Below, one piece after another: positions 30,546 through 44,321 of a stretch of DNA of 64,000 nucleotides (the first letter of the stretch is position 1; each line of letters opens with the position of its first letter). The position numbers were made by a program, and so were the translations under genes. Where the stretch lies: the NCBI GenBank assembly GCA_038229495.1, contig JBBROJ010000006.1, positions 7,038-71,037 on the forward strand, written 5' to 3'. This stretch comes from Chthonomonadales bacterium. Lineage in GTDB: Bacteria > Armatimonadota > Chthonomonadetes > Chthonomonadales > CAJBBX01. The notes below the pieces were generated by a model. It saw nothing but the letters and a program-made list of their open reading frames with translations. It had not been told where the DNA came from and ran no database searches.

Positions 30546-30604
30546 ACAAACTCATCCGCAAATGCGACAAAAATGCGATGTGCGTTTTGCATATTACGAA
30601 TATG

Positions 30605-30637
30605 AAAAGACCGGACGCGCTTCTGGCGCATCCGGTC
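30605..30637 (-). terminator. rho-independent terminator of rpmE
   Basis: The minus strand reads GACCGGATGCGCCAGAAGCGCGTCCGGTC followed by TTTTCATATT. Confidence 0.75.
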
Positions 30638-30705
30638 CCAGCCGTAAATGAGCGTCGTCTGCGCCATCCGTACTTTCGATGCCGCTCCGCCCGCTCGCTG
30701 CCGTG

Positions 30706-30909
30706 CTACTGCTTCATTTTGTACTTTTGCAGGAATTTCTGGACTCGGCCTTCCGTGTCTACAATCTTCTGCTTGCCGGTAAAGAACGGGTGGCAGGCCG
30801 AACAGATTTCGACGCGCAGCTGGGGCTTGGTCGAGCGCGTTTCAAACGCGTTTCCGCATGCGCAGTGGACCGACGCCTGCACATAAATCGGGTGGATTCC
30901 CTCTTTCAT
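30706..30909 (-). CDS. rpmE: 50S ribosomal protein L31 (Zn-ribbon form)
   Basis: MKEGIHPIY... with the HCAC and CSAC Cys pairs. ATG 30909 lies 8 nt after GAGGTG. Confidence 0.92.
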
Positions 30910-30991
30910 TCGCACATCACCTCATCTCGTAAACTGGCGCGCACCGGCGCTGTCGTGCAAGTCTCTTTTCACTCATACGATGCAACCATGT

Positions 30992-31000
30992 ATTATAGCA
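30992..31000 (-). promoter_or_regulatory. candidate extended -10 element (TGCTATAAT) for rpmE
   Basis: The minus strand reads TGCTATAAT about 85 nt upstream of the rpmE ATG. No good -35 element was seen. Confidence 0.3.
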
Positions 31001-31156
31001 CAACCGTTTACAAGTAGTCCGAGAGATTCGAGCAGTAGAACCGGCCGGGAATGTCGAGCGTGAAAGATGCGGCTGTCAACGGGAATTAAATGGGAACCAA
31101 ATGCACCGATAATAGGATATAACAGAATGTAGCGAGCTGATACCGGATATATCTTT

Positions 31157-31606
31157 ATGTTCCATATGAACCGACCGCGCAGTTACAACTATATAAGCTC
31201 AACGTGTCTGTGGCTGTTCGTGGCTGCGTGCATTGTCGTAAATCGTGCTCCCGCGCAAGCGGACTGCCATGGAATGCGCCAGCCGCTGACCGCCGCAGGC
31301 TCGCATTCGTGCTGCGTTGTCAAGGCGGAATGCGCCTGCGAATCACCGGTGGCGCATACTAGCCTCCTCACCAAAGTTGTTCGTGCCGGTTCCGCTGGCT
31401 GCCCCTGCCTGAAGGCTCCGGTTCAGGAGCAGATTCCCGTTGCAGACCAGTCACGCACGGTTGTCGTCGCGGGGCCGGTCTCGCAGGCTGTGCGCCTTCA
31501 CGCAGTGGACGCGCCGCTCGCGCGCCTCGCCCCGTACTCCTGTTCGCTGCCTCGCGGTTCGCCGCCTGCTCTTGCCTCCCCTCGCGCACCACCTTTCCAG
31601 GGCTGA
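31157..31606 (+). CDS. exported Cys-rich protein of unknown function (first gene of the copper island)
   Basis: Signal peptide ..CLWLFVAACIVVNRAPAQA, then CHG, CC, CAC and CPC motifs. Confidence 0.5.
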   Translation: MFHMNRPRSYNYISSTCLWLFVAACIVVNRAPAQADCHGMRQPLTAAGSHSCCVVKAECACESPVAHTSLLTKVVRAGSAGCPCLKAPVQEQIPVADQSRTVVVAGPVSQAVRLHAVDAPLARLAPYSCSLPRGSPPALASPRAPPFQG

Positions 31607-31685
31607 TTCCGTCTCCGGCACATAACGCCGGGTAAATGGGGCCTGCCGCCCCACCGAATCAACTCGCTACAGGAAAGGTTTTCTC

Positions 31686-32318
31686 ATGTTCTCCCAATTT
31701 TCCCAATCTGTGCGCGTCTTCGGACGCGGATTTGCGGCCGCTGCCGCCTTCGTCGTCGTCGCCCCTGCCGCCGTTCGCGCGGAAGAAGCAGGTTCGTTCA
31801 CCTGCCCGGTCCTTGGATCGAAGATCGAGTCGGTAACCAAGGACACGCTCTCCGCGGACTATAGGGGCGTCCGGTACTACTTCTGCTGCGCCTCCTGCAA
31901 GCCGCAGTTCGAGAAAGACCCGGCCAAGTTCCTCAAGTCCACCACGAACAAGGACAAGGTGATCGGCGCGTCCCTCTTCGACCCTATCTCCACGAAGCGT
32001 CTCGACCCCGATAAGGCCGCCGCGCACAGTGACTACAACGGCGTGCGGTACTTCTTTTCCACTGCCGACGAGAAGAGATCCTTCGACAAGGAGCCGAAGA
32101 AGTTGGCTTTGACCCCGGAGAAGGACGTGTTGTTCTGCCCGGTCAGTAACGAAACGGTCGACTCCTATGCGGAGGCGTCCGACTACAGTGACGTGAAGGG
32201 AACGCGCTACTACTTCTGCTGCGCGGGCTGTAAACCCAAGTTCGATCAGAACCCGGATAAGTATCTGGAGGGACTGGACGCCCGCATCAAGGCCGCAAAG
32301 AAGAAGAGCGACAAGTAG
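31686..32318 (+). CDS. exported protein with three YHS/TRASH-type metal-binding repeats
   Basis: Signal peptide. Repeats: GVRYYFCCASCKPQFEKDPAKFL; GVRYFFSTADEKRSFDKEPKK (Cys-less); GTRYYFCCAGCKPKFDQNPDKYL. Confidence 0.8.
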   Translation: MFSQFSQSVRVFGRGFAAAAAFVVVAPAAVRAEEAGSFTCPVLGSKIESVTKDTLSADYRGVRYYFCCASCKPQFEKDPAKFLKSTTNKDKVIGASLFDPISTKRLDPDKAAAHSDYNGVRYFFSTADEKRSFDKEPKKLALTPEKDVLFCPVSNETVDSYAEASDYSDVKGTRYYFCCAGCKPKFDQNPDKYLEGLDARIKAAKKKSDK

Positions 32319-32354
32319 CCTCGCGGCCGCGCACCTGAAAGAAGGGAATTCACC

Positions 32355-32948
32355 ATGAAGACGACGACATCCATAAACGGCTTGCGACACACGCCCGCGC
32401 TGCTTGGACTTACGATTGTCGCGCTCGCCAGCATCCCAAACCTTCCGGCCCGGGCACATATCGGCCATTGGCTGCCGGTATCCAATAACAACCCGCGAAC
32501 GGTGGCGGCCAACGACCTCAAAACAGCCGAGCAGACAGCGACTCACGGTACGATATCCGGCGACAAGAAGACGCTCACCTTTACTGAAAAGGCAATCACC
32601 TTCGTTGTGGAGACCGGGCCGGATGACGACATGCTGTCATATCGGATCGCCGGACTGCGCAATCCGACCGTCGTCCTCCCACGCGGCGCGGTCGTAACCG
32701 TGCTGTTCGTGAACCGTGACGGCGATATGACGCACGACTTGCGCTTTACCGCGGCCCATGCGCCGTTCCCGATGGAGCCGAACCGAAAGGACTCCGTTGG
32801 CAGCGCAACGCTCGTCCATGCCGACAAGTCGGTCCAGCACGCCGAGCAGTTCACAATGCGCGCGGAAAAGGCGGGCGACTATGCCTACCTCTGTACGGTA
32901 AAAGGCCATGCCAAAGGGGGCATGTTCGGGGTCCTGCAAGTCAAGTAA
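32355..32948 (+). CDS. type-1 (blue) copper protein, cupredoxin fold
   Basis: Signal peptide. Type-1 ligand pattern H (DMTHDL) ... YLCTVKGHAKGGMFG (C-x4-H-x4-M). Confidence 0.75.
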   Translation: MKTTTSINGLRHTPALLGLTIVALASIPNLPARAHIGHWLPVSNNNPRTVAANDLKTAEQTATHGTISGDKKTLTFTEKAITFVVETGPDDDMLSYRIAGLRNPTVVLPRGAVVTVLFVNRDGDMTHDLRFTAAHAPFPMEPNRKDSVGSATLVHADKSVQHAEQFTMRAEKAGDYAYLCTVKGHAKGGMFGVLQVK

Positions 32949-33035
32949 CCGCGCGCATCTGGAGCAAGACAGACCGCTTCGCTGCCGTTCGGCCTTAATG
33001 TGTCGGACGGTAGCGGATGGAGCATTAAATATACC

Positions 33036-34280
33036 ATGAAGAACGAGAACGAAAAGGTAGACCGCAGACAGTTTCTCTCGATGGCCGGGCTGACGGGCGC
33101 CGGCCTGATTGCCGGCGGCCAGGCAGCCGAAGCTCAGCACGAGAATACTCACCCAATTCAAAAGCCCGATTCCTGGCCCTCTCAGTTTGTATTGGCAGAG
33201 ACGGCGCCCAGGTATGCGCCGCGCGACATGCCAAAGCCGGGCGATAAGATCCACGAATTCGATATCGAAGTCACCGTGGAAAAGATCGAGATTCTGCCGC
33301 TGGAGGAGCACCACTTCTATACATTCAACAAGTCGCTCCCTGGGCCGTTGATCCGCGTCAAAGAAGGCGATTGGGTCAAGGTGAATCTCATCAATAAGAC
33401 ACATGACTTCCATACCATCCACTGGCACGGAATCTACGTGCCGTGCGAAATGGACGGCGTACCGCTGGGAACGCAGTATCCGGTCGGCTTTAACCAGACG
33501 TTTACCTATCTCTGGCGGGCCCAGCCTGCGGGCACGCACTTCTACCACTGCCACAACATGACGAACATGCACATTCAGGCGGGACTTTACGGCGCGCTCA
33601 TTATCGATCCGGAGGACGAGGACCCGATCCAAAAAGCGTTCCCGTATGAACGCGAGTATACGCTGATCCTCAGCGAAGTGGACACCGATTTTCTCCGCGA
33701 ACAGATCAACGAGATGCTGGAGATGGGAGTCAGAATGGACCGGATGAATGCGTCCGCCAAGCTCATGCAGAAGATGGATGGCCGCATGATGGGATGGTTC
33801 GCCAATAAGGAGGCGTTCCTCAAGGCGGTAAAGGACGGCTGGATTCCCCCCTACCACCGCAGCCGAACGGGACCGACCCGGCGTATCGAGCCGAACTTCT
33901 TCCTCATCAACGGACGGCCCTATCCGATGACCGAGCACATGCACATCAAACGAGGAGAAAACATCCGCGTGCGGATGATTAACGCCGGCCTCATGCCGCA
34001 CTTCATGCACCTGCACGGACATGACTTCTGGCACGTGGCGCACGACGGCTCGCCTCTGGCTTCACCGGTCCGGGCCAATACGATTCCGGTCTATCCCGGC
34101 TCGACGACGGACATCGTGGTCCAGGGCACGAACCCCGGCCACTGGCACTTCCACGACCACAGCGACCTGAGCATCATGAACAACGGAAAGTCGCCGGGCG
34201 GCATGATGACGATGCTGATGTACGAGGACGCGGAAGAGGCGGGCTTCAAATTCAAGGAGATTATCGCCCTCGACTCCTGA
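33036..34280 (+). CDS. Tat-exported multicopper oxidase (small, two-domain-like) with Met-rich insert
   Basis: Twin-arginine signal VDRRQFLSMAGLTGAGLIAGG. HxH motifs: HTIHWHG, FYHCHNMTNMH, HFMHLHGH, HWHFHDH. Met-rich segment MLEMGVRMDRMNASAKLMQKMDGRMMGW. Confidence 0.85.
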   Translation: MKNENEKVDRRQFLSMAGLTGAGLIAGGQAAEAQHENTHPIQKPDSWPSQFVLAETAPRYAPRDMPKPGDKIHEFDIEVTVEKIEILPLEEHHFYTFNKSLPGPLIRVKEGDWVKVNLINKTHDFHTIHWHGIYVPCEMDGVPLGTQYPVGFNQTFTYLWRAQPAGTHFYHCHNMTNMHIQAGLYGALIIDPEDEDPIQKAFPYEREYTLILSEVDTDFLREQINEMLEMGVRMDRMNASAKLMQKMDGRMMGWFANKEAFLKAVKDGWIPPYHRSRTGPTRRIEPNFFLINGRPYPMTEHMHIKRGENIRVRMINAGLMPHFMHLHGHDFWHVAHDGSPLASPVRANTIPVYPGSTTDIVVQGTNPGHWHFHDHSDLSIMNNGKSPGGMMTMLMYEDAEEAGFKFKEIIALDS

Positions 34281-34374
34281 CCGGCATCGAGACGCCATCG
34301 GGCGCTCGTCGTCAGGCGCTTGATGAGGCTTGATGAAGTCGGCAGCCTTGTCTGCTATCGGGCATTCTTTACGC

Positions 34375-35634
34375 ATGAAGAGGAGACATGTTGTGAATCT
34401 GACGGAAAATCCCGGCCGCATATTGAAAACGGCGCTGGCGCTGGCCATATCGACCCTACCGACGTTCGCGCATGGACAGGCGCAGCGCACGCCCGTTCCT
34501 GAGAAGCCCAGTGTCGCTCCGCAGATCGAGGTAGACGGAACCGGCATTGCCACGCTGGAAGGACAATCGCCTCGTATCACGCTGTCGAGCGGCAATCGCT
34601 CAAGCGCCAGCCGGATCAATGTTTCCGATTCGGCCATCCTGCTGGGCGCTTCGGAGAGGCTCTTTCGCAAGGGCGGAATCGGCAGCTTCGTAATAGGCAC
34701 GACTTCCACTGAAACGGACGCGACCCCGAGCGGCACCGGTATGTTCCTGCACCAGATGTTCGTGAACTACCAGACCCGTTCATCGGAGGCGACGCTCGGC
34801 AGGACCGACGTTGCCACGCGCCTTATCGACTTCCCCACGATTCGGGGCGACGACCTCAACGAATTCGTCAACATGCTAAACCCCTTCTCTAACGGGGACA
34901 ACGTGGAAGAGCATCGGTATAGCGACCAGGCTTCTTTTACGCTCACCCGCAACCTGCGTCACTTCCTGAACTTCCACGCGCAGCATCTTGTGACCAGCAC
35001 AGCCCGGACAATCGGTCAGGGCGGCCTCAATTCTTTCGGCGTGAGCTACCAGTATCAGACGATCCCCGCACTGGAGGTGCTGACCAAGATACCGCTCTGG
35101 GGCGTGGGCTTTGAGCGACAGGATATTGGCCAGGGATTTGGCGGCGCAGCCAATCTTGTCTATGGAGGCGTAGTTTACAATATCCAGCCTGACCCGGTAG
35201 ATCGCATCGACCTGCGCGTCCAGGACATTTACAGCTTCGGCAACGACACGTCCGCCTTCGCCTCGGTTGCGGATACGTTCCGGGCAGCCAACAATACGGT
35301 CGCCGCTTCGCTGCGGTGGCTTCATAGTCCGTTCGGCACCCCCGGTCATCAGGTAGCCCTGACTATCGGCTACAAGAACTACAACAAGGTATCGAACGCC
35401 AACACGCTGGGATTGGCTCTAACCGGCGTAAAGCGACTCGGCGACGGTTTCGACCTGGTGGCTCAGTATTCCTATCATCACCGGCAGCCGGCGTACGCCG
35501 CGACGTTCAGCAACGTTCGCAACGAGCACTCGGTGCAGGTGGGGTTTGTCTTCAACTTCACCAACACCTTCAACCAACACCTGGGACCCCGCCGGTCGCT
35601 GCTCAACTTGCAGCACCAGTACGTTCCCGACTAA
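34375..35634 (+). CDS. putative outer-membrane beta-barrel protein
   Basis: Signal peptide ..ALALAISTLPTFAHG. Alternating-hydrophobicity strands and an aromatic-rich C-terminal strand (VQVGFVFNF). An alternative start is GTG 34393, 6 nt after AGGAGA. Confidence 0.5.
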   Translation: MKRRHVVNLTENPGRILKTALALAISTLPTFAHGQAQRTPVPEKPSVAPQIEVDGTGIATLEGQSPRITLSSGNRSSASRINVSDSAILLGASERLFRKGGIGSFVIGTTSTETDATPSGTGMFLHQMFVNYQTRSSEATLGRTDVATRLIDFPTIRGDDLNEFVNMLNPFSNGDNVEEHRYSDQASFTLTRNLRHFLNFHAQHLVTSTARTIGQGGLNSFGVSYQYQTIPALEVLTKIPLWGVGFERQDIGQGFGGAANLVYGGVVYNIQPDPVDRIDLRVQDIYSFGNDTSAFASVADTFRAANNTVAASLRWLHSPFGTPGHQVALTIGYKNYNKVSNANTLGLALTGVKRLGDGFDLVAQYSYHHRQPAYAATFSNVRNEHSVQVGFVFNFTNTFNQHLGPRRSLLNLQHQYVPD

Positions 35635-35711
35635 TGAATCGGTCCGATGGAGCCGGCAGGCTATTGCCAGCTCCTGGACCATGACAAATATCGCAGAAGA
35701 GGCACACGAAT

Positions 35712-37025
35712 ATGAACGCCGTAAAACACAACATAACAGCACGTCGGGCAGGCTTCCTAACGTTCGCCGCGGCAACAGCAGCGATCGCGCTGTTCCTCGA
35801 AGCGCCAAGCGCATGGGCACAGGACCACTCTGAGCACGGGAGAGGCAGTGATAACAGGGGTGGCTCCGACAAGGAGTCGATGCGAAATGTTTCCCGCCTC
35901 AAGGAGAAGCGCATGCTGACAGTGACTGGCCAGGAAGACTGGGACAGCATGCTGAGCTTCGGGCCCGACTCCTCCATGGCAGAGATGATGATCCAGATGA
36001 TGGTTGGAGGCTCCGGCATGGAGCACATGAAGATGGCGGCCATGAAATCCGGCATGCGCATGGGCAGCATCACAGACCGTGTGCCTATGCTCGGTGCGGC
36101 GAGTGACAAAGGCGCAATCGCTGGCAAAAGCAGCGGCTTCCCGGTGACGGTAACCGTCACACCGAATCCACCGGTCGTCGGCGACAACAAGCTGGATATT
36201 GTCGTAACTGACGCGTCTGGAAAGCCGGTCACGGGCCTGAAGCTCTCATCGGCAGTCGGCATGACCAGCATGGACATGGGCACCGAGCGGCCAAAAGCGA
36301 CCGAAGGCCCGGACGGACGCTACTCGCTCCCCGTCAAATTCCGCATGAAGGGCCCGTGGCGCGTGACTCTCACGAGCGACACGCCAAAGGGGATGAAGAG
36401 CAGCGACGCTGTCAATGTTCCGCTGGATTTTAATGTCGGCAGCAAGGACAAATGGTCCATCCCTGCGGCACGTGCGAAATCCACTGCCGCTGCATCTAAA
36501 GAGCACGCAGCAAAGGAGGCATCTACAAACCAAGCGCCGCATACGTCTGACGCAAAGGAAGGCACGGGGGCGCCATTAGTCAAATTGCCAGAGCAAGCGC
36601 CAGCTCCTCAAAAGGCAATAGCTGCTGCGCCGGAGCTGGCACAGCCTGCGCGCGTTCCATCCACTTCCGCATCGGCCGTGTTAGAGACGGCGACAACGCC
36701 TGCTCCAACGGCCTCATCTGACACCGGAGTCAAGATTGTTCTCGACACCAAGCCAGATGCGGTCAAGGTCGGAAAGAACATCCTCTCGTTTACTATTCTG
36801 GATCCGAGCGGGAAGGCTCTTTCCGGTGCAAAAGTAACGTCTTCGGTCGCTATGACCAGCATGGACATGGGCACGACGCATCCGACGGCGAAAGAGGGTA
36901 AGGGAGGTCATTACACAGCGCCCGTTGAGTTCAGCATGAAAGGCCCCTGGCGAGTTGTCGTCACTGTCCAGGGGAAGGGCCAAAAACCGGCGACGCGCTC
37001 CTTCGACTTCGACGTGAAGAAGTAG
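35712..37025 (+). CDS. exported protein with Met-rich region and two YtkA/FixH-like domains
   Basis: Signal peptide. Met-rich region MAEMMIQMMVGGSGMEHMKMAAMKSGMRMG. Two repeats of ..V(V/K)VG.N.L...(V/I)(T/L)D.SGK...G.K..SSV.MTSMDMGT....A.EG..G.Y..PV.F.MKGPWRV... Confidence 0.7.
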   Translation: MNAVKHNITARRAGFLTFAAATAAIALFLEAPSAWAQDHSEHGRGSDNRGGSDKESMRNVSRLKEKRMLTVTGQEDWDSMLSFGPDSSMAEMMIQMMVGGSGMEHMKMAAMKSGMRMGSITDRVPMLGAASDKGAIAGKSSGFPVTVTVTPNPPVVGDNKLDIVVTDASGKPVTGLKLSSAVGMTSMDMGTERPKATEGPDGRYSLPVKFRMKGPWRVTLTSDTPKGMKSSDAVNVPLDFNVGSKDKWSIPAARAKSTAAASKEHAAKEASTNQAPHTSDAKEGTGAPLVKLPEQAPAPQKAIAAAPELAQPARVPSTSASAVLETATTPAPTASSDTGVKIVLDTKPDAVKVGKNILSFTILDPSGKALSGAKVTSSVAMTSMDMGTTHPTAKEGKGGHYTAPVEFSMKGPWRVVVTVQGKGQKPATRSFDFDVKK

Positions 37026-37159
37026 GCGCCTGGACGTACGACGAAGGCGAATTGGGTTGATACCTATCTGAAACGCACGGGCACACGGCCGCAGGAGGCT
37101 CCCGCCCGCCCGCCGCAAGAGCCGATGGGCTGATCTTAACAACAATGGAGATACGAATT

Positions 37160-37282
37160 ATGCCTGAAAAACCACATCGTTACGAACAGGAAGACCCGCG
37201 CCACGACCATCCTCAGGGACGTGAAGGGCACGGGCACACGCACGGCTTCGTAGACCCCTCCATTGCGCCGACGCCTGCTTGA
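37160..37282 (+). CDS. His-rich 40-aa micro-protein (possible remnant of a cation-transporter N-terminus)
   Basis: ATG 37160 lies 9 nt after GGAGA. Sequence: MPEKPHRYEQEDPRHDHPQGREGHGHTHGFVDPSIAPTPA. The stop TGA is at 37280-37282, inside the SD of the next gene. Confidence 0.4.
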   Translation: MPEKPHRYEQEDPRHDHPQGREGHGHTHGFVDPSIAPTPA

Positions 37283-37293
37283 AGGAGCACGAT

Positions 37294-38481
37294 ATGAAGA
37301 TGCTGGCAGAGTGCATCCGCCTCGACAAGGACTGCGCGTCCATATGCTGGGAGGCGGCGGGTTACATGAGTCGCGGTTCGCGGCTCACAGCCCAAGTCTG
37401 CCGTCTCTGCGCCGACATCTGCGACGCCTGTGCTCAAGAGTGCGAGAAGCACCAGCCCATGGAGCACTGTCGGCAATGTGCGGAAGCCTGTCGACTTTCC
37501 GCCGAGGCGTGTCGCCGCATGACAGGCGCTGCGGGCTGCGGCCTGACAGAGCCGTGGAAGTCTCGGCGGCGGGCCAGAAACTCCTGGCCCGCCGCTACAA
37601 TCTCGAAGACCGTCATGGCAGTTCGGATAGTATTATTGATCCTGGTTATGGGCGTTGTGGCGCCTGTCTGCGCCACCGCGCTTCCGAAATTTCACAAGGT
37701 CTTCCTGCAGACCTACCAGCCAAAGCCAGGGTCGCCCCTGGGCGAAGCAAAGTGCCTGACGTGTCACGCGTCACCTGGCCCGCCGAAACGTAACTCCTAC
37801 GGCAAACTGGTGGAGGAAACGATACATGGGGCAGGATCGCACGACGAGGTAACTGCTGCCCTGCTCCATAAGATCGAAAGTGTGGACTCGGACGGAGACG
37901 GGTGGACAAACGGACAGGAAATTGCGGAAGGAACACTTCCTGGAGACCCGATAAGCCATCCCCTCGCAACACCTTCATCAAGCACGGCACTTCCGAGCCC
38001 CCAAGTTCCAGACGCACAGCCTGCGGTTTCCAAGCAGTCTTCATCCGGTCTTCAGCGCATGCTGATGCCCAAACATTCGTTCCATCCCATTATCGTTCAT
38101 TTCGCGTTGGCTCTTTTCATATTTGGCGCTACGCTGGAAATCCTTGGTTTACTGAAGCGTCGCCCGAATCTCTCTGAGGCGGGCTTTATGAATATGACAA
38201 TTGGCAGCATGGCCGGCGTTGCCGCGGCCGCCACCGGTCTCGTCGCGGCATACAGGAATGGATTCCCTTGGAAAGGCACTTTGCTCATACACCTCATCCT
38301 GGGCTTAACAGCGGCGCTGGGAATGGCGACGACCGCTTGCTTGGGATACCGGGCGTCTCGCTTCCGGCGAGAACGTTACTCGCGCGTTTACCTAGCGCTG
38401 GTCGTTATTTCCTTGCTGCTCGTGATTGCAGCGGGATTTTTCGGCGGCGAGTTCGTATACACTGAGTTGATGGGAATGTAA
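37294..38481 (+). CDS. fusion protein: Cys-rich four-helix-bundle (DUF326-like) domain, TM anchor, CXXCH haem-c motif, DUF2231-like 4-TM domain
   Basis: ATG 37294 follows GAAGGAG. Cys-rich region CIRLDKDCASIC..VCRLCADICDACAQECEKH..EHCRQCAEACRLSAEACRRM. Then KSRRRARN, a TM helix, and AKCLTCH. Then DSDGDGWTNGQE. Then HSFHPIIVHFALALFIFG, a DUF2231-type start. There is no stop between the parts. An internal ATG lies at 37615. Confidence 0.65.
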   Translation: MKMLAECIRLDKDCASICWEAAGYMSRGSRLTAQVCRLCADICDACAQECEKHQPMEHCRQCAEACRLSAEACRRMTGAAGCGLTEPWKSRRRARNSWPAATISKTVMAVRIVLLILVMGVVAPVCATALPKFHKVFLQTYQPKPGSPLGEAKCLTCHASPGPPKRNSYGKLVEETIHGAGSHDEVTAALLHKIESVDSDGDGWTNGQEIAEGTLPGDPISHPLATPSSSTALPSPQVPDAQPAVSKQSSSGLQRMLMPKHSFHPIIVHFALALFIFGATLEILGLLKRRPNLSEAGFMNMTIGSMAGVAAAATGLVAAYRNGFPWKGTLLIHLILGLTAALGMATTACLGYRASRFRRERYSRVYLALVVISLLLVIAAGFFGGEFVYTELMGM

Positions 38482-38617
38482 GATAACGCTCCGCCGGACA
38501 GACAAGCAGTGACTCACGTGCGCAGGCCGTGTCGACTCATTTAGGCTGCGGTTTCACTCATGCAGACGGGAGCCGCCAGATACCTTGGATAATCGCCAGG
38601 ACGCGAAAGGAAAAGCC

Positions 38618-40039
38618 ATGAAGCGTACCCTACTCGCCACAACTCTGACAGGGGCTCTGCTGTTCGGTCCACGACCGCTCGTCGCTCAGGAGCATCAGCA
38701 TGATCCGGCCAAAGAACCGGCCAAGAAGCGCGGCGCGCAGGAAGAACAGGCGCCCATACCGATGCAGCACGACATGTCCAAAATGCAGCCCTCCGAGAAG
38801 GGCAAGGCCATGCCGCATGACATGAAGCAAATGTCCGGTCACAATATGAGCCACATGCAAGGGATGGACATGATGTCGTCCTTCGCGGGCATCCCCATGA
38901 CCCGCGACGCATCCGGCACTTCCTGGCAGCCGGACAGCACTCCCATGCACGCAAAGCACGAGATGAGCGGTCTCTGGAGAGTAATGCAGCACTACAGCGG
39001 TTTCCTGAGTTATGACAACCAGGGCGGGCCGCGCGGAAGCGATCAAGTACACGGAATCGGCTGGTACATGCTGATGGTCTCCCGTCCGCTGGGCCGGGGA
39101 GAGCTAACGCTGCGCACCATGCTGAGCCCGGAGCCGCTGACCGTGGGAAAACACGGCTATCCGCTGCTCTTCCAGAGTGGCGAGGCGGTGAACGGCAAGC
39201 CGCTGGTGGATGTTCAGCATCCGCACGATCTTTTCATGGAGCTGGCGGCGCGCTACCGCTACAAGCTGGACGACAGGACCGCTGTTTCCCTCTATGTCGC
39301 TCCGTCCGGCGAGCCAGCCATTGGCCCCACTGCATTCCCCCATCGGACGTCGGCGCTGGACAATCCCCTGGCGCCGATCTCGCACCACTGGCAGGACGGG
39401 ACCCATATCACGTTCGGCGTACTGACAGCGGGAATATCTCGCGACAAGTGGCAGCTGGAAGGCTCTTACTTTAACGGTAGGGAGCCGGACGAGAACCGGT
39501 GGGACATAGATTCAATCCGCCTTAACTCCTTTGCCGGGCGGTTGAGCTATAATCCCGGTTCCAATTGGAACCTGCAAAGTTCGTATGCCTATGTCAAGAG
39601 CCCGGAGTCGCTGCGGCCGGACGAGGATGTGCGGCGGACAACGTTGTCCGCAAGCTACAATCGTCCGCTTTCAGAAGGCGGCAACTGGGCAAGCACGTTC
39701 GTCTGGGGACGAAACAGCTCTCACGGATCGAACACCGACTCGCTGTTGCTGGAGACGGACTACAACATCGCGAATCGAAACACGCTGTTCGGGCGGTTGG
39801 AGCACGTTGTGAAGGCAGGCGAGGAGCTGGCGCTTATGCCCACGAATCGCAAGTTTGGTATCACGGAGCTGACTTTGGGCGGCGTCCATGAGTTGACCCA
39901 GGGCCGCGCATACCAGGCGGGAATCGGCGCGGCGGTAACGTTCAATTGGAAGCCGGGCGATCTCGATTCGCTCTACGGCAAGGACCCGATGGGGGTCTGG
40001 GTCTTCCTACGTATTCGGCCCGCGCCTATGGCGCATTGA
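38618..40039 (+). CDS. uncharacterised Met/His-rich outer-membrane barrel protein (paralog 1)
   Basis: Signal peptide. HQHD..MQHDMSKMQ..MPHDMKQMSGHNMSHMQGMDMM. Conserved motifs SGTSWQPDSTPM, HPHD, PISHHWQDGTHI and GRLSYNP. C-terminus FLRIRPAPMAH. Confidence 0.65.
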   Translation: MKRTLLATTLTGALLFGPRPLVAQEHQHDPAKEPAKKRGAQEEQAPIPMQHDMSKMQPSEKGKAMPHDMKQMSGHNMSHMQGMDMMSSFAGIPMTRDASGTSWQPDSTPMHAKHEMSGLWRVMQHYSGFLSYDNQGGPRGSDQVHGIGWYMLMVSRPLGRGELTLRTMLSPEPLTVGKHGYPLLFQSGEAVNGKPLVDVQHPHDLFMELAARYRYKLDDRTAVSLYVAPSGEPAIGPTAFPHRTSALDNPLAPISHHWQDGTHITFGVLTAGISRDKWQLEGSYFNGREPDENRWDIDSIRLNSFAGRLSYNPGSNWNLQSSYAYVKSPESLRPDEDVRRTTLSASYNRPLSEGGNWASTFVWGRNSSHGSNTDSLLLETDYNIANRNTLFGRLEHVVKAGEELALMPTNRKFGITELTLGGVHELTQGRAYQAGIGAAVTFNWKPGDLDSLYGKDPMGVWVFLRIRPAPMAH

Positions 40040-40090
40040 GGACCACCGTCGACGGCGGAACGGCAATAGATCTGTTGCGTATATATTTTT

Positions 40091-40145
40091 CGCCCGTGAG
40101 GACGGTTGGCCGAAGGCCCTTCCGCGAGTGAATTTATTCACTCGC
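40091..40145 (+). terminator. three consecutive hairpins after paralog 1 (twin-hairpin module copy C plus a 10-bp palindrome)
   Basis: CCGT-GAGG-ACGG, GGCC-GAA-GGCC, then GCGAGTGAAT-TT-ATTCACTCGC (40124-40145). Confidence 0.5.
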
Positions 40146-40385
40146 ACGCAGGCGTAACGGGGATTTTGCGAGCGGTCCTACATTAATTTTCGGCGCTACG
40201 TTATGTGGCGCCGTGTTCGTTTCACCCGTTGCCCTACGGCCGTCGAGAGCATTGACAACGTTCTATCAGGTAAGAGGTTTACACTCCAGGCAAACGCTGC
40301 TAGAAGGTATACTGCGGTAAGGATGACGCAAAGCTTCTCATCATATTTCCCAGCCCTATTGCGCATCCAAGACAGAGGAGTTTCC

Positions 40386-42086
40386 ATGAAAGCTAACTAT
40401 ATTTCCGTATTGGTAATTACTGGCGCCGTGCTGGCCACCGGCCTGTTAGCGCAGACAGTCACCGGGAATTCCTATACGGCGGCGCTTAAGACCGATCCTA
40501 AGACCATCCAACCAGGCAAGTCCACGACCCTCGATATCTATATCATGGATTCGACCTCGAAGACTCCCAGCGAAAACCTCACCATCACCGCGTCCTTTAA
40601 TATGCCAGCCATGACGGGCATGACATTGGACCAGCCCAAAGTGACCCTAAGTGACAAGCCCGGCCACTTTAACGTGCAGCTCACGTTCCCCCATGCCGGA
40701 AGCTATAAACTTGCCCTCACGGTCAACCCGACAACCGGGAAGAGCGCCACCCTGTCCTTCAATATCACACCCGGCAGCGCCGGAGGCGCAGCCGTGAAAG
40801 ACATGTCAGGAATGTCAGGAATGTCAGGAATGCAGGGGATGCAGATGAAAGCAAGCCTCGGGAACTGGTTGGCAAGCCGGGAAGGTTCAGGGACGTCGTG
40901 GCAGCCGGACTCTTCGCCGATGTTCATGAAGACGCTTGGCTCGCTGGGAAGATTTGACTTAAGCGCAATGGGAACGATCCAGGGAGGTTACGTAGACGAT
41001 GGCGGTACGCGTGGCGATAGAGGCTTTTTCACCAACTCGATGTTAATGCTCATGGGCCGCCGCGAACTGGGTGGCGGAACCCTCGGCCTACATTTTATGA
41101 CTTCGCTCGATCCCATTATCAACGGCAGACACGGCGTTCCGAATCTCTTTCAAAACGGATTTACAGTCCACGGCGTTGACATCGGCGACCGGAAAGACCC
41201 GCATAATGTCTTTGCGGAAATCGCGGCCAACTACAGCCATCCGCTTTCCAAAGCTTGGACCGGCTTCATTTACGGCGGCCCCGTCGGCGAACCGGCGCTG
41301 GGGAATGTCATGTACTTGCACCGCACGAGCGGCCTAGAGATCCCCGAAGCGCCTATCAGCCACGATTGGTTTGACGGCACCCACATCAGCTTGGGAGTCG
41401 CGACTCTGGGACTTGTTTATCAAGATAAGTGGAAGCTTGAAGGTTCCGTTTTCAATAGTCACGAGCCTTCCAACCTTTACGGCATTGGCAAAGTCGAACT
41501 TAACTCGGCATCCGGTCGACTCAGCTACAATCCGTCCCACGACTGGTCGTTTAGCACTTCCTACGGATATTTGGACTCCGACGTCAATGAACACCGCCTC
41601 ACTTTTGGCGGGGCCTACAGCCACCCGCTCCCCCACGGCGACAATCTTTCCGCGACCGCCTATTTCGGCCAAAATATCGTTCAAGGGTCCGCAAAGTCCA
41701 ACGCATGGCTTGCGGAGGCGACATATTACCACGCTAAGGATGCATTTTTCGCCCGCTTTGAACGAGTTGATAAGGACGAGCTCGTCAATGTGCCGCCCGG
41801 AAACTACACGATCAACAAGCTGCTCTTTGGTGACGTGCACAACTTCTATAGCAAAGCCCAGATCGACTATGGTCTGGGAGCCTACTTCGGCGTCTACAGC
41901 TTCCCGAGTTCCCTAAACGCTCTCTACGGTAAGAACCCGCTCACCTTCGGCGTGTTCCTACGCATCCGCCCGGCTGCTATGCAACACAGCGGAGGATACG
42001 GAGGAGGCATGGCCGACGAACACATGAAGTCCCACGAGATGAAGAACGACAGGATGAACTCTGGCTCCGGCATGGACATGCCATGA
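40386..42086 (+). CDS. YtkA-like domain fused to Met/His-rich outer-membrane barrel (paralog 2)
   Basis: ATG 40386 follows GAGGAG. Signal peptide. N-terminal Ig-like YtkA-type domain (..PGKSTTLDIYIMD..MPAMTGMTLDQP..GHFNVQLTF). MSGMSGMSGMQGMQM. SGTSWQPDSSPM and the same downstream motifs as paralog 1. Tail MADEHMKSHEMKNDRMNSGSGMDMP. Confidence 0.7.
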   Translation: MKANYISVLVITGAVLATGLLAQTVTGNSYTAALKTDPKTIQPGKSTTLDIYIMDSTSKTPSENLTITASFNMPAMTGMTLDQPKVTLSDKPGHFNVQLTFPHAGSYKLALTVNPTTGKSATLSFNITPGSAGGAAVKDMSGMSGMSGMQGMQMKASLGNWLASREGSGTSWQPDSSPMFMKTLGSLGRFDLSAMGTIQGGYVDDGGTRGDRGFFTNSMLMLMGRRELGGGTLGLHFMTSLDPIINGRHGVPNLFQNGFTVHGVDIGDRKDPHNVFAEIAANYSHPLSKAWTGFIYGGPVGEPALGNVMYLHRTSGLEIPEAPISHDWFDGTHISLGVATLGLVYQDKWKLEGSVFNSHEPSNLYGIGKVELNSASGRLSYNPSHDWSFSTSYGYLDSDVNEHRLTFGGAYSHPLPHGDNLSATAYFGQNIVQGSAKSNAWLAEATYYHAKDAFFARFERVDKDELVNVPPGNYTINKLLFGDVHNFYSKAQIDYGLGAYFGVYSFPSSLNALYGKNPLTFGVFLRIRPAAMQHSGGYGGGMADEHMKSHEMKNDRMNSGSGMDMP

Positions 42087-42270
42087 CATTTAAGCGCCTA
42101 CTCTCCCAATTAATTGTTATTGCCTCGCTTGCCACGACCTGCCTTGTAAGTGGTGCGCCATTCGTAACGAGCGCGCATAGGGCGGGAAATACCATCGAAG
42201 GGCGTACCGTGCTCATCCATGCGCGTTGCACCGTGTTCGTTTCCCCCTTTGCGCCGTTTCCTTGAAAGTT

Positions 42271-42296
42271 ATGTCGCGATGTCGCGATGTCGAGCG
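42271..42296. repeat. tandem 8-bp repeat ATGTCGCG x3 abutting the esterase stop codon
   Basis: atgtcgcg atgtcgcg atgtcgag cg, followed by tca (the stop of the minus-strand gene at 42297-42299). Confidence 0.85.
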
Positions 42297-44321
42297 TCAA
42301 TGCGCATTGGCGGTGACGCCGGGCCATTGGTCGGTGCGGAAGGGAAGCGCGGGCAGGCCCGCCCCGTTGTAGAGATTGGCGACCGGATTATTGGCCCACG
42401 CATAGCGCACGGCTGCGGGATCGGTTACCAGCGGTGACCACACCACGACCGAGTTACCCTCCACGAGGGCATCGGCCCAGACGAATTTATGGTCCCTGCC
42501 CGCGATGGCGAAGCCGCTGAGCTTGCCGACTTTCACGGTCAGGCCGCCGGCGTGGTGGTCGAATGCAATCCGTATCCGGTTGCCCTCCCGCTTCATCCCT
42601 TTGTAGGCCGGGCCGGAATACTCGAGCTTCTTGCCATAGGCGATGGCGAGCGCATTGAGCGCCAGCCGTCTGCCCACCTCCTGCTTGTTCTTTGGGTGGA
42701 TGTCTGCCGCGTCACCAATGTCGATGGCCGTCGCGATGCCGGAATTGCCCACGCTGTGTGCCGCCATCATCTGGGCTTCGCGGAGCTCCGGCCACGCGTC
42801 GCTCTTAGGCTCGGAATCGGTCTGCATGAAGTTCGCGAGCTGCACGATGAAGAATGGGAAGTCGCCCACGCCGAAGCGGCTGCGCCAGTCCCGAATCATG
42901 ATCGGAAGCAGCGCGCGGTACTGATAGGCGCGGCCCGCGTTCGATTCGCCCTGATACCAGATTGCTCCCTTGATTCCGTAGGGTATCACCGGTGCGATCA
43001 TTCCATTGTAGAGCACGGTAGAGATATTGGGGTTGTTGTCGGGATTCATTGGGGCGGGAGTCGTCCTGGAGAGCGGTACGCTTGCCTTGTAGAGCCATTC
43101 GCCGGTCAGCGGAAGCGTGCGTCCCGCGACGTCCAAGTGAAGCTGATTGGGCGCGCCGTTCAGTCCGCCGGCTCCCCCGGTGTCCAGCACGCGCACGGCT
43201 ATGATGTTGCGGCCTGCCTTCAGCGCTCCCGCCGGAATCTTATATGAGCGGAGAGTAGTATAGACGCCCGTTTCGCCGACCTTAACGCCGTTCACCCAGG
43301 TCGTATCGCGGTCGTCAATGGGGCCGAGATTCAGCACCGCCTCTTGCCCCGCCGCGTCCGCGGGAACCTCCACCTCCCGGCGAAACCACACGATGCCGTC
43401 GAAATCCGGCAGGCCCGCGCTCTCCCACTCCACGGGGAGGCTCATTGTCTTCCAGCCGGTTGTCGAGAAGTCTACGGCGGCCCATCCGATTTCGCCGGCA
43501 GAGCCGGGATCGTTCTTCGCCCACCACGCCGCCATGGCTTTATCCATGTCGAAGGAGCCTTTAGAGGCATCGCGCATCATGACGACCTGCGCCACGGCCT
43601 GCTTGAAGTCCGGCATCGCCTGGAGGGCCTCGGAGCTTGTCCACGCTTCGGCAATCGTGCCTCCCCAGGAGGTATGAATCAGGCCGATAGGAACCTTCAG
43701 CTCTTTGTGAAGCTCTCGTCCGAAGAAGTAGGCGACGGCGCTGAACCCGCCCCAGCCGCCGGATGAGACGGTCGTAGGGGTGCAGAGGTCCCATTGGCCG
43801 ATAACTGTGTTTCGTGGTTCCAGGGCAATGGTCTTCTGAACGGTGAACAGCCGAATCTGGGGATATTCAGCGCTCGCAATCTCCTCCTTGGCGTTATTCA
43901 CCTGGCCGATCCCCATCTCCATGTTCGACTGCCCGGAGCATATCCAGACGTCGCCTACAAGGACATTTTTCAGCGAAATATTCTGTGGGCCGGCAACGGA
44001 GAGCGTGTATGGGCCTCCTGCTGTAAATGGGCCCAGCCTGGCAATCCATCTGCCGGTTGCGTCCGCCGTCGTCGAGGCGGTCCTGCCCTCCATGCTTACG
44101 GTAACCTTCTGGCCGGGCGTGGTCCATCCCCAAACCGGCGCGAGGATTCCCCGCTGCAGCACCATGTTGTCGGTGAACATCGGGCTGAGGAAAGGTCTGG
44201 CCGCCTGGGCGGACGCGGACTCGAGAGGTGCCAGAGTTAGAACAGCTATCGAAAGTGCAGCGAGAATGACAACGGAATGTAAACCCGCGATAGATTTGAT
44301 TGAACGTAACGGACTCGTCAT
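42297..44321 (-). CDS. exported sialate-O-acetylesterase-like SGNH hydrolase
   Basis: Start re-picked at ATG 44321, 7 nt after GGAGG. Signal peptide. GDVWICSGQSNME catalytic-Ser motif. Second half WYQGESNA. Confidence 0.75.
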   Translation of the reverse strand: MTSPLRSIKSIAGLHSVVILAALSIAVLTLAPLESASAQAARPFLSPMFTDNMVLQRGILAPVWGWTTPGQKVTVSMEGRTASTTADATGRWIARLGPFTAGGPYTLSVAGPQNISLKNVLVGDVWICSGQSNMEMGIGQVNNAKEEIASAEYPQIRLFTVQKTIALEPRNTVIGQWDLCTPTTVSSGGWGGFSAVAYFFGRELHKELKVPIGLIHTSWGGTIAEAWTSSEALQAMPDFKQAVAQVVMMRDASKGSFDMDKAMAAWWAKNDPGSAGEIGWAAVDFSTTGWKTMSLPVEWESAGLPDFDGIVWFRREVEVPADAAGQEAVLNLGPIDDRDTTWVNGVKVGETGVYTTLRSYKIPAGALKAGRNIIAVRVLDTGGAGGLNGAPNQLHLDVAGRTLPLTGEWLYKASVPLSRTTPAPMNPDNNPNISTVLYNGMIAPVIPYGIKGAIWYQGESNAGRAYQYRALLPIMIRDWRSRFGVGDFPFFIVQLANFMQTDSEPKSDAWPELREAQMMAAHSVGNSGIATAIDIGDAADIHPKNKQEVGRRLALNALAIAYGKKLEYSGPAYKGMKREGNRIRIAFDHHAGGLTVKVGKLSGFAIAGRDHKFVWADALVEGNSVVVWSPLVTDPAAVRYAWANNPVANLYNGAGLPALPFRTDQWPGVTANAH

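What the first reader, a model, noticed from the sequence alone, without database searches (positions are those of the whole stretch)
38618..42086. Paralogous pair of uncharacterised outer-membrane barrels with Met/His-rich extensions, one fused to a YtkA-like domain
The two adjacent proteins share a long collinear core.

Shared motifs (paralog 1 vs paralog 2):
- SGTSWQPDS(T/S)PM
- HPHD vs DPHN
- GEPAIGP vs GEPALGN
- H-R-T-S then PISHHWQDGTHI vs PISHDWFDGTHI
- DKWQLEGSYFNGREP vs DKWKLEGSVFNSHEP
- GRLSYNP
- C-terminal FLRIRPAPMAH vs FLRIRPAAMQH

The metal-binding decorations differ. Paralog 1 has an N-terminal HQHD/MQHDMSKM/MKQMSGHNMSHMQGMDMM tract. Paralog 2 has an N-terminal YtkA-type Ig domain, an MSGMSGMSGMQGMQM tract (a 9-bp tandem repeat at 40803-40829), and a C-terminal MADEHMKSHEMKNDRMNSGSGMDMP tail.

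The core carries many conserved His residues. I could not match this family to PcoB or any named porin from memory.
Basis: partly seen in the sequence, partly recalled or inferred. Interest (0 to 1): 0.65.

Follow-up and report, generated by a model that had tools for sequence, protein, structure and literature searches.

The report
Unnamed copper-linked outer-membrane barrel pair
Two neighbouring genes at the end of a copper-handling gene cluster encode members of a very large, unnamed family of predicted 16-stranded outer-membrane barrels. They carry conserved histidines and methionines and copper-catching arms, and most likely help copper cross the outer membrane.

Summary
Genes 38618-40039 (P1, 473 aa) and 40386-42086 (P2, 566 aa) are paralogs, 41% identical over 383 aa (E 2e-83). 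All quoted motifs are present, as are the Met/His-rich tracts, the 9-bp repeat and the YtkA domain in P2.

AlphaFold models of both (pLDDT about 80) give 16-stranded barrels, with a disordered Met/His arm in P1 and a confident YtkA Ig domain in P2. The best structural matches are 16-stranded general porins at about 10% identity.

No Pfam, NCBIfam or PDB sequence match passes threshold. Pfam BBP2 is just below its cut-off. PcoB/CopB is excluded by sequence and by strand count.

The family is large (about 4,900 clusters at 50% identity) and spans several diderm phyla. Every named member is called 'hypothetical' or 'FixH family'. Half of 80 related loci have a copper gene within 3 kb: a Cu-type P1B ATPase, a CopC-CopD fusion directly downstream, a multicopper oxidase or Cus-type genes.

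The most conserved parts are two 36-residue loops carrying four invariant His, plus Met on strands 1-4.

Best reading: a non-homologous functional analogue of PcoB/CopB, an outer-membrane copper conduit fed by periplasmic Met/His/YtkA arms. Direction of transport and metal binding are untested.

The parts
38618..40039 (+). P1: 473-aa family member (signal peptide, Met/His arm, 16-strand barrel core)
   Evidence: ORF. Identical to P0001 in the protein collection. AlphaFold model pLDDT 80.5, pTM 0.77.
38690..38911 (+). P1 N-terminal Met/His-rich disordered arm (aa 25-98), inferred periplasmic
   Evidence: pLDDT below 50 for aa 12-85. It has 12 Met and 6 His in 74 aa, p 6e-7 against the cores. 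A Met/His tract immediately before the core is found in most family members.
38912..40036 (+). P1 barrel core (aa 99-473), beginning with the conserved SGTSWQPD motif
   Evidence: 16 strands in the DSSP string. Foldseek matches 16-strand porins. The pattern of long and short gaps between strands fits the usual outer-membrane-protein topology.
39125..39232 (+). P1 loop L2 (aa 170-205) with QHPHD (H201, H203)
   Evidence: Mean top-residue frequency 0.83, against 0.70 for strands; 22 of 36 positions are at least 90% conserved.
39311..39418 (+). P1 loop L3 (aa 232-267) with H242, H256, H257, D260, H263. It occupies the position of the constriction loop of general porins.
   Evidence: The most conserved stretch of the protein: 0.90, with 25 of 36 positions at least 90% conserved. 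R243, D260 and H263 are invariant across 147 diverse members.
40386..42086 (+). P2: 566-aa paralog (signal peptide, YtkA domain, Met linker, barrel, Met/His tail)
   Evidence: ORF. Identical to P0121. AlphaFold model pLDDT 80.6.
40455..40766 (+). P2 YtkA-type Ig domain (aa 24-127) with a conserved Met triad (M73, M76, M79) and an FPH motif
   Evidence: Pfam PF13115, E 1e-10, 42.6 bits. pLDDT above 90 for aa 21-130. Near-invariant Met residues in A2.
40767..40886 (+). P2 Met-rich linker (aa 128-167), including the 9-bp tandem repeat at 40803-40836 that encodes (MSG)n
   Evidence: TRF score 61, 3.9 copies. pLDDT below 50 for aa 133-151. Homologs have MxGM linkers of variable sequence.
40887..41972 (+). 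P2 barrel core (aa 168-529)
   Evidence: 16 strands. 41% identical to the P1 core. Invariant H273, H312, H326, H333, M221, M223 and M238.
41973..42083 (+). P2 C-terminal Met/His tail (aa 530-566). It is absent from the four close homologs inspected.
   Evidence: pLDDT below 50. 27% Met+His. The four close homologs inspected end 3 residues after the barrel.
31157..38481 (+). Upstream same-strand copper gene cluster: small Cys-rich protein (31157-31606), 3xYHS protein (31686-32318), cupredoxin (32355-32948), TAT-signal multicopper oxidase (33000-34280), unknown 434-aa protein (34330-35634), 2xYtkA Met-rich protein (35712-37025), and a DUF326/Csp-like + CxxCH + DUF2231 protein (37279-38481)
   Evidence: Pfam and NCBIfam scans. 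The order MCO, unknown, YtkA protein, barrel is conserved in Chthonomonadaceae locus L001.

Best explanation
P1 and P2 are two anciently diverged members of a large, unnamed family of 16-stranded outer-membrane beta-barrels that handle copper. They appear to be non-homologous functional analogues of PcoB/CopB.

Proposed mechanism:
1. Both chain termini lie in the periplasm.
2. The flexible Met/His-rich arms (P1 N-terminus, P2 linker and C-tail) and the YtkA Ig domain of P2 capture periplasmic copper. That copper would be delivered by a Cu(I)-exporting P1B ATPase, by the multicopper oxidase or by soluble YtkA/YHS/cupredoxin proteins.
3. The arms hand the copper to the barrel.
4. Conserved Met on the polar faces of strands 1-4, and a cluster of four invariant His on the long loops L2 and L3, form a ligand-lined path or selectivity site through which copper crosses the outer membrane.

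The cluster context favours removal of periplasmic copper (detoxification) as the net role.

Shown here: paralogy, predicted fold, conservation pattern, domain content and genomic association with copper genes. Inferred: topology, that L2/L3 fold into the lumen, copper binding, transport and its direction.
For: - Fold: two independent AlphaFold models (pLDDT 80.5 and 80.6) each give 16 strands. Foldseek's best PDB hits are 16-strand general porins: BpsOmp38 at E 7e-12, then OmpF and Omp32, with target-normalised TM 0.58-0.67.
- Topology: gaps after odd-numbered strands are long (6, 36, 36, 18, 9, 2, 11, 13) and gaps after even-numbered strands are short (2-6). This is the usual loop/turn rule for outer-membrane proteins and puts both termini in the periplasm.
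- Conservation: L2 and L3 are the most conserved regions, 0.83 and 0.90 against 0.70 for strands. H203, H242, H256 and H263 are invariant. H114, H125, H201, H257, M123, M151, M153, M168 and M207 are at least 90% conserved. The same His and Met are invariant in the P2 subfamily.
- Decorations: across 385 members, most carry a Met/His tract directly before the core. Other fusions are YtkA, YHS, cupredoxin/plastocyanin, cytochrome c and an unnamed double Cys-rich domain.
- Context, 80 loci from several diderm phyla:
  - A P1B ATPase lies in 35 loci and within 500 bp in 16-21, depending on how ORFs that overlap the family gene are counted. Of 29 full-length ATPases, 19 have the Cu(I) signature CPC+YN+MxxSS and 4 have CPH.
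  - A CopC-CopD fusion lies directly downstream in 12 loci, the same order as copB-copC-copD.
  - Some copper gene lies within 3 kb in 40 of 80 loci.
- Cultured examples: Fimbriimonas ginsengisoli has a YtkA protein, the barrel, a P-type ATPase and a Cus-like OEP/MFP/RND set. A Pontibacter plasmid has a Cu ATPase, the barrel and a four-helix copper-binding protein; a Sphingobium plasmid has MerR, the barrel, DUF305 and an ATPase.
- Window context: the pair closes an 11-kb same-strand copper cluster.
- Precedent: PcoB is an outer-membrane barrel whose disordered His/Met N-terminal region is required for copper resistance (PMC12509749). YtkA/CtaK domains act in extracytoplasmic copper trafficking (PMC13344008).
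Against: - No experiment exists on any member, and no metal-binding or transport data.
- I could not inspect model coordinates. That the His/Met residues face the lumen, and that L2/L3 fold inward, is inferred from the secondary-structure string and hydrophobicity parity only.
- Passive efflux against an external copper gradient is thermodynamically awkward; the same objection was raised for PcoB (PMC9210255).
- CopCD and YtkA partners are linked to copper import and cuproenzyme assembly, which points the other way.
- About half of the related loci show no recognised copper gene nearby.
- The barrel lacks a canonical C-terminal aromatic residue.
- The loci were recovered with patterns from the P1-like subfamily, so the sample is biased.
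Confidence: 0.55

Rival explanations
1. The barrel is an outer-membrane copper uptake channel. It admits external copper and passes it, through its periplasmic Met/His arm or YtkA domain, to CopC-CopD importers and chaperones that supply cuproenzymes.
For: A CopC-CopD fusion lies directly downstream in 12 of 80 loci. CopCD/YcnJ and YtkA/CtaK act in copper import and CuA assembly in B. subtilis (PMC13344008). The PcoB structure paper argues that PcoB itself admits Cu(II) (PMC9210255). The window cluster encodes cuproproteins that need metalation, namely the multicopper oxidase and the cupredoxin.
Against: The commonest neighbour is a Cu(I)-exporting P1B-1 ATPase. Cus-type efflux genes, MerR-type regulators and copper-storage proteins also co-occur, as expected for resistance islands. 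copABCD-type operons containing CopCD are themselves resistance operons.
Confidence: 0.2
2. The barrel is mainly a membrane anchor. The protein is an outer-membrane-tethered periplasmic copper buffer or scaffold whose Met/His tracts, YtkA or Cys-rich domains sequester copper or stabilise partner proteins, with no transport through the barrel.
For: The periplasmic decorations are modular and swapped freely between members. The PcoB N-terminal region stabilises the periplasmic oxidase PcoA (PMC12509749).
Against: The decorations are the least conserved part. The strongest conservation lies in the barrel loops L2/L3 and in His/Met of the core, some invariant across phyla. A mere anchor would not need this.
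Confidence: 0.1
3. The barrel holds a bound copper centre (His4 with or without Met) and acts as a redox device at the outer membrane. It would be a cuprous oxidase, a cupric reductase or an electron conduit, comparable in architecture to the fused cytochrome-porin Cyc2.
For: Six of 56 long members carry an N-terminal cytochrome c domain, and others carry cupredoxin/plastocyanin or redoxin domains. One cytochrome c fusion sits next to a PQQ beta-propeller protein and a cytochrome b. Cyc2 is a 16-strand porin with an N-terminal monohaem cytochrome (PMC8406198). Four invariant His plus invariant Asp/Glu resemble an enzyme site as much as a channel filter.
Against: P1 and P2 have no Cys and no CxxCH motif. 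Redox-domain fusions are a small minority. The cytochrome c fusion locus still carries Csp, DUF305 and a P-type ATPase, so it is also a copper island. No homology to Cyc2 was tested.
Confidence: 0.1
4. The proteins are ordinary general-diffusion porins, and their copper-like features and neighbours are incidental.
For: The best structural matches are general porins. There is a sub-threshold Pfam BBP2 porin hit. Some loci have no copper genes nearby.
Against: Copper genes are strongly enriched next to the gene across many phyla. Fused domains are specific to copper or redox chemistry. The invariant His/Met constellation is not a feature of general porins.
Confidence: 0.05

Closest known systems
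PcoB / CopB outer-membrane copper protein (Pfam CopB PF05275; PDB 7PGE)
   Same: Both are outer-membrane beta-barrels preceded by a disordered, poorly conserved His/Met-rich periplasmic N-terminal region. Both are encoded in copper clusters with a multicopper oxidase. In many loci the new family sits directly upstream of CopC-CopD, the position copB holds in copABCD. The direction of copper movement is equally unresolved for PcoB (PMC9210255 against PMC12509749).
   Different: There is no sequence relationship: no Pfam CopB hit at E<=0.1, and hhalign probability 0.2% against the 7PGE barrel. PcoB has 12 strands in about 215 aa and an acidic Glu/Asp-lined pore (PMC9210255). The new family has 16 predicted strands in about 375 aa, two long conserved loops, and invariant His and Met.
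16-stranded general porins (OmpF/OmpC, Omp32, BpsOmp38)
   Same: They are the best structural matches: Foldseek E 7e-12 to 1e-8, target-normalised TM 0.58-0.67. They share the strand number and a long third loop at the position of the constriction loop.
   Different: Sequence identity is only 7-13%, with no Pfam porin match. The new family adds a long conserved L2, an invariant His/Met set, periplasmic metal-binding arms and domains, and copper-gene neighbourhoods. Whether it forms trimers is unknown.
Pfam BBP2 (PF07642), putative OmpL-like beta-barrel porin-2
   Same: There is a weak match to the C-terminal half of the barrel: P1 aa 261-422, 24.5 bits, E 2e-5. A few homologs carry precomputed PF07642 hits.
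   Different: The score is below the 26.2-bit gathering cut-off, and most family members have no hit. BBP2 itself is functionally uncharacterised and has no known copper link.
YtkA/CtaK domain proteins and the YcnJ CopC-CopD-YtkA importer
   Same: The P2 N-terminal domain is a true YtkA domain. YtkA domains are extracytoplasmic copper-trafficking modules fused to copper transporters (PMC13344008).
   Different: In P2 the YtkA domain is fused to an outer-membrane barrel, not to an inner-membrane CopD or a lipid anchor.
Cyc2 fused cytochrome-porin (iron oxidase)
   Same: A minority of family members share its architecture of an N-terminal cytochrome c followed by a 16-strand barrel (PMC8406198).
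   Different: P1 and P2 have no haem motif. The family context is copper, not iron oxidation. Homology was not tested.

Membership tests
PcoB/CopB (PF05275) | Sequence match to the CopB profile or the PcoB barrel | tested here: not met
   No PF05275 hit at E<=0.1 for P1 or P2. A profile of A1 finds no PcoB chain in the PDB at E<=10. hhalign of A1 against the 7PGE barrel gives probability 0.2%.
PcoB/CopB (PF05275) | 12-stranded barrel of about 215 aa | tested here: not met
   16 strands over about 375 aa in both AlphaFold models. PcoB has 12 strands (PMC9210255).
PcoB/CopB (PF05275) | Disordered His/Met-rich N-terminal region | tested here: met
   P1 aa 25-98 has 24% Met+His and pLDDT below 50. 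This is a shared trait, not evidence of homology.
PcoB/CopB (PF05275) | Encoded next to a multicopper oxidase (pcoA/copA) | tested here: inconclusive
   A multicopper oxidase lies in the same window cluster, but 4.3 kb upstream with three genes between. One lies within 3 kb in only 6 of 80 related loci.
PcoB/CopB (PF05275) | Confers copper resistance or binds copper | not testable with these tools
   Needs genetics or biochemistry.
Pfam BBP2 (PF07642) | Score at or above the 26.2-bit gathering cut-off | tested here: not met
   P1 scores 24.5 bits and P2 has no hit. Hits on record for homologs are 'faint'.
General 16-strand porins (OmpF-like) | 16-stranded barrel with a long L3 | tested here: met
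   Strand counts and gap pattern. Foldseek top hits. All are predictions.
General 16-strand porins (OmpF-like) | Sequence membership in a porin family | tested here: not met
   No Pfam or NCBIfam porin family hit, and no PDB sequence hit.
General 16-strand porins (OmpF-like) | Trimeric assembly and an open diffusion pore | not testable with these tools
   No multimer modelling or coordinates were available.
YtkA-like domain (PF13115), P2 N-terminus only | Profile match above the 25.9-bit cut-off and an Ig-like fold | tested here: met
   42.6 bits, E 1e-10, aa 27-111. All-beta domain at aa 23-127 with pLDDT above 90.
Cyc2 fused cytochrome-porin | N-terminal CxxCH haem motif | tested here: not met
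   P1 and P2 contain no Cys. Only a minority of other family members have an N-terminal cytochrome c.
Cyc2 fused cytochrome-porin | Sequence homology of the porin part | not tested
TonB-dependent copper receptors (OprC/NosA) | Plug domain plus 22-strand TonB-dependent receptor barrel | tested here: not met
   No TonB-dependent receptor or Plug Pfam hit. 16 strands in the models.

The most novel reading that the evidence does not exclude
The conserved His4 (+Met, Asp/Glu) constellation in loops L2/L3 is a bound copper centre, making the family an outer-membrane redox device. It could be a cuprous oxidase, a cupric reductase or a copper-based electron conduit. It would be wired to periplasmic cytochrome c or cupredoxin in the members that carry those fusions, a copper counterpart of the Cyc2 cytochrome-porin.
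Probability: 0.1. Interest if true: 0.85.

Novelty: new variant of a known kind. Interest (0 to 1): 0.62.

Why it matters
How copper crosses the outer membrane is one of the least settled steps in bacterial copper homeostasis. The single dedicated barrel known, PcoB/CopB, is still disputed as importer or exporter.

This finding defines a second, unrelated and much more widespread barrel family: about 4,900 clusters at 50% identity, spanning Armatimonadota, Verrucomicrobiota, Gemmatimonadota, Acidobacteriota, Myxococcota, Bacteroidota and Pseudomonadota. It occupies the same operon niche and carries the same kind of disordered Met/His arm, but has a His/Met-lined 16-strand core.

The family has no Pfam or NCBIfam model, so thousands of genes in copper islands are currently annotated 'hypothetical'. 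It occurs in cultured strains (Fimbriimonas ginsengisoli, Pontibacter akesuensis, Sphingobium baderi, Cystobacter fuscus, Novosphingobium olei), so the hypothesis can be tested directly.

The modular fusions to YtkA, YHS, cupredoxin, cytochrome c and a new Cys-rich domain offer a natural experiment on how periplasmic copper is handed to an outer-membrane protein.

Tried and rejected
- PcoB/CopB membership was rejected. There is no Pfam CopB hit. hhalign of A1 against that barrel gave probability 0.2%. The strand counts also differ.
- Sequence searches of the PDB with P1 and with the family profile found nothing relevant.
- NCBIfam gave no hit for either paralog.
- Model coordinates are not exposed, so I could not measure the positions of the His/Met residues relative to the pore. 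I used secondary-structure gaps and hydrophobicity parity instead.
- The promoter/terminator scan of 30500-42600 found no more sites than shuffled sequence, so operon boundaries remain undefined.
- The unknown 434-aa protein downstream of the multicopper oxidase was tested as a possible third family member or CopB analogue. hhalign against A1 gave probability 0.2%, and it has no PDB or Pfam hit.
- Full-text literature searches on YtkA plus outer membrane, and on copper, porin and methionine-rich terms, found no paper describing this family. Absence from this library is not proof.
- BLASTP of the window's other copper-cluster proteins against the 80 loci found them in few loci. The exact window cluster composition is specific to Armatimonadota, whereas the ATPase and CopCD association is general.

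Full report
**Observation.** The + strand carries two ORFs at the stated place.
- P1 is 38618-40039 (473 aa from the ATG that follows an AGGAAA-like ribosome-binding site).
- P2 is 40386-42086 (566 aa from the ATG that follows GGAG).
- BLASTP gives 41% identity over 383 collinear residues, E 2e-83.
- Met+His make up 24% of the P1 N-extension and 27% of the P2 C-tail, against 6.3% in the cores (p 6e-7 and 7e-5).
- The 9-bp repeat is real: 40803-40836, 3.9 copies.
- P2 aa 27-111 match Pfam YtkA above threshold.
- Neither protein contains Cys.

**Fold.** AlphaFold2 with family alignments A1 and A2 gave confident models.
- P1: pLDDT 80.5, pTM 0.77. Residues 1-85 are disordered, and the rest is all-beta with 16 strands.
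- P2: pLDDT 80.6. It has a high-confidence Ig-like YtkA domain (aa 23-127), a disordered Met linker (133-151), a 16-strand core (180-529) and a disordered tail (535-566).
- Foldseek against the PDB ranks 16-stranded general porins first: BpsOmp38 at E 7e-12, then OmpF and Omp32. Target-normalised TM is 0.58-0.67 and identity 7-13%.
- In both models the gaps after odd-numbered strands are long (6, 36, 36, 18, 9, 2, 11, 13 in P1). The gaps after even-numbered strands are short (2-6). This is the textbook pattern of long extracellular loops and short periplasmic turns (established knowledge). I infer that both termini, and therefore the Met/His arms and the YtkA domain, are periplasmic.

**Not a named family.**
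- Pfam gives only a sub-threshold BBP2 hit for P1 (24.5 bits against a 26.2 cut-off) and nothing for the P2 core. NCBIfam gives nothing.
- The PDB holds no sequence relative, either for P1 alone or for the family profile.
- PcoB was tested explicitly. There is no CopB Pfam hit. hhalign of A1 against the 7PGE barrel gives probability 0.2%. PcoB is a 12-strand, 215-aa barrel with an acidic pore (PMC9210255).

**Family size and spread.**
- The word-indexed search returned at least 7,958 hits for P1 and 2,305 for P2. All named hits are 'hypothetical protein' or, because of the YtkA domain, 'FixH family protein'.
- An exhaustive profile search of 1.84 billion representatives at 50% identity found 4,893 clusters at E<=1e-3 and 1,325 at E<=1e-30.
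- Genome hits span Armatimonadota (Chthonomonadales, Fimbriimonas), Verrucomicrobiota, Gemmatimonadota, Acidobacteriota, Myxococcota (Cystobacter fuscus, Archangium minus), Alpha-, Beta- and Gammaproteobacteria, Omnitrophota and Bacteroidota.
- P1 is 55-62% identical to proteins of other phyla but only 41% to P2. P2's nearest relatives are Armatimonadota YtkA fusions. The pair is therefore an ancient paralogy or an acquisition, not a recent tandem duplication.
- Twelve of 80 loci carry two copies.

**Conservation.** In A1 (43 sequences) the most conserved stretches are not the strands (mean top-residue frequency 0.70). They are loop L2 (aa 170-205, 0.83) and loop L3 (aa 232-267, 0.90).
- Invariant: H203, H242, H256, H263, M151, M153, M168, E208, E232, D260, E289.
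- At least 90% conserved: H114, H125, H201, H257, M110, M123, M207.
- The Met residues sit with alternating spacing on the more polar, more conserved face of strands 1-4.
- The P2 subfamily keeps the same four His and three Met.
- Across 147 diverse representatives, R243, D260, H263 and F285 remain invariant.
- L3 is the loop that constricts the pore in general porins (established knowledge). That it does so here is an inference.

**Decorations.** Across 385 family sequences, most have a Met/His tract directly before the core motif FAGIP..REASGTSWQPD. Larger additions are:
- N-terminal YtkA, the stable architecture of the P2 subfamily;
- C-terminal YtkA (P0006);
- a roughly 240-aa duplicated Cys-rich module with no Pfam match (P0002 and others);
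- among 56 long representatives: cytochrome c (6, N-terminal), cupredoxin/plastocyanin, YHS and redoxin.

All of these are copper-binding or redox modules. The P2 Met linker varies in sequence but keeps its MxGM character in the four close homologs inspected, and those four lack the window's C-tail.

**Genomic association.** I analysed 80 related loci (1.2 Mb), using clustering of neighbouring ORFs plus Pfam scans of representatives.
- A P1B ATPase with YHS and HMBD domains is the commonest neighbour: 35 loci. It lies within 500 bp in 16-21 loci, depending on how alternative-frame ORFs that overlap the family gene are handled.
- Of 29 full-length ATPases, 19 carry the Cu(I) P1B-1 signature CPC+YN+MxxSS and 4 carry CPH.
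- A CopC-CopD fusion lies directly downstream in 12 loci. Multicopper oxidase and CusC/B/A-like genes recur.
- Some copper gene lies within 3 kb in 40 of 80 loci, and in 28 of the 52 loci with full flanks.
- From general knowledge, genomes carry only a few P1B ATPases per several Mb, so this is a large enrichment.
- Cultured examples agree:
  - Fimbriimonas ginsengisoli has a YtkA protein, the barrel, a P-type ATPase, then OEP, MFP (with YtkA and cupredoxin) and RND genes.
  - A Pontibacter akesuensis plasmid has a Cu ATPase, the barrel and a four-helix copper-binding protein.
  - A Sphingobium baderi plasmid has MerR, the barrel, DUF305 and an ATPase.
- In the window, the pair ends an 11-kb same-strand cluster: 3xYHS protein, cupredoxin, TAT multicopper oxidase, an unknown protein, a 2xYtkA protein and a Csp-like/DUF2231 protein. 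The order is conserved in Chthonomonadaceae locus L001.
- Some loci show no copper genes at all.

**Interpretation.** The best-supported reading is an outer-membrane copper conduit that is analogous, not homologous, to PcoB/CopB.
- Periplasmic Met/His arms, and YtkA in P2, would capture copper and present it to a His/Met-lined 16-strand barrel.
- The analogy rests on three shared features: a barrel with a disordered His/Met arm, an arm shown to be essential in PcoB (PMC12509749), and the same operon position upstream of CopCD.
- YtkA/CtaK domains are established extracytoplasmic copper-trafficking modules (PMC13344008).
- Direction is unresolved. ATPase, Cus, multicopper oxidase and MerR neighbours favour detoxification, while CopCD and YtkA favour supply. 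PcoB itself is disputed (PMC9210255 against PMC12509749).
- Rivals are an uptake channel, an anchored copper buffer, a copper-centred redox device (suggested by cytochrome c and cupredoxin fusions that echo Cyc2, PMC8406198) and a plain porin.

**Novelty and score.** Full-text searches found no paper on this family. It is a new, unnamed and very widespread variant of a known kind of system, the outer-membrane copper barrel with a disordered metal-binding arm. Interest is moderate to high: it gives a second, testable entry to the open question of copper passage across the outer membrane. All functional claims remain computational.

Noticed in passing
window 34330-35634 (+): An unknown 434-aa protein (413 aa as called elsewhere) with a signal-peptide-like N-terminus lies directly after the multicopper oxidase, the slot CopB holds in copAB operons. 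It has 203 homologs, whose few named members are Armatimonadota (Chthonomonadales), and no Pfam, NCBIfam or PDB match. It is unrelated to the barrel family (hhalign probability 0.2%). Its position is conserved in L001.
   Followed up: partly
window 37279-38481 (+): A single ORF combines a DUF326/Csp-like Cys-rich four-helix-bundle segment, a CLTCH (CxxCH) haem-type motif with a weak dihaem-protein match, a TSP3-like repeat and a DUF2231 membrane domain. This is an unusual fusion for a copper cluster. The start codon and whether it is truly one protein were not checked.
   Followed up: partly
P0002, P0005, P0008, P0019 (homologs of P1), N-terminal about 240 aa: Many close P1 homologs carry a duplicated Cys-rich module (RYxCCxxxPPGS..CDxCA..GSCxCG...GxCGxC) ahead of the Met tract. 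It has no Pfam match and may be a new periplasmic metal-binding domain.
   Followed up: partly
P0365, P0380, P0435, P0452; locus L086 6672-8519: Some family members have an N-terminal cytochrome c domain fused to the barrel, a Cyc2-like architecture. In L086 the gene abuts (shares its first base with the end of) a PQQ beta-propeller gene and lies near cytochrome b and DUF305. Csp and a P-type ATPase lie on a second contig that carries the same gene.
   Followed up: partly
window 31157-31606 (+); L004 9254-9682; L005 3791-4243: A small Cys-rich secreted protein opens the window's copper cluster. Weak homologs lie just upstream of the family gene in two other Chthonomonadales loci.
   Followed up: partly
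window 40040-40385: A 346-bp spacer separates P1 and P2 and contains a 10-bp-stem hairpin at 40191-40213. The P2 region has lower G+C (0.548) than its surroundings (about 0.59-0.61). This fits separate transcription or a separate origin for P2.
   Followed up: no
L077 6359-6868, L039 8526-9128 and similar ORFs in Pyrinomonadaceae loci: Small conserved ORFs (about 150-200 aa), one of which was scanned and has no Pfam match, lie immediately upstream of the family gene in 7-8 Acidobacteriota loci. They may be lineage-specific partners.
   Followed up: no
window 35712-37025 (+): A 437-aa protein has two YtkA domains, each with an (A/G)MTSMDMGT motif, joined by a long Ala/Pro/Ser-rich low-complexity linker. 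It also has an N-terminal Met-rich segment.
   Followed up: no
window 32001-38000: AT skew is strongly positive (0.08-0.17) over the copper cluster compared with the rest of the window.
   Followed up: no
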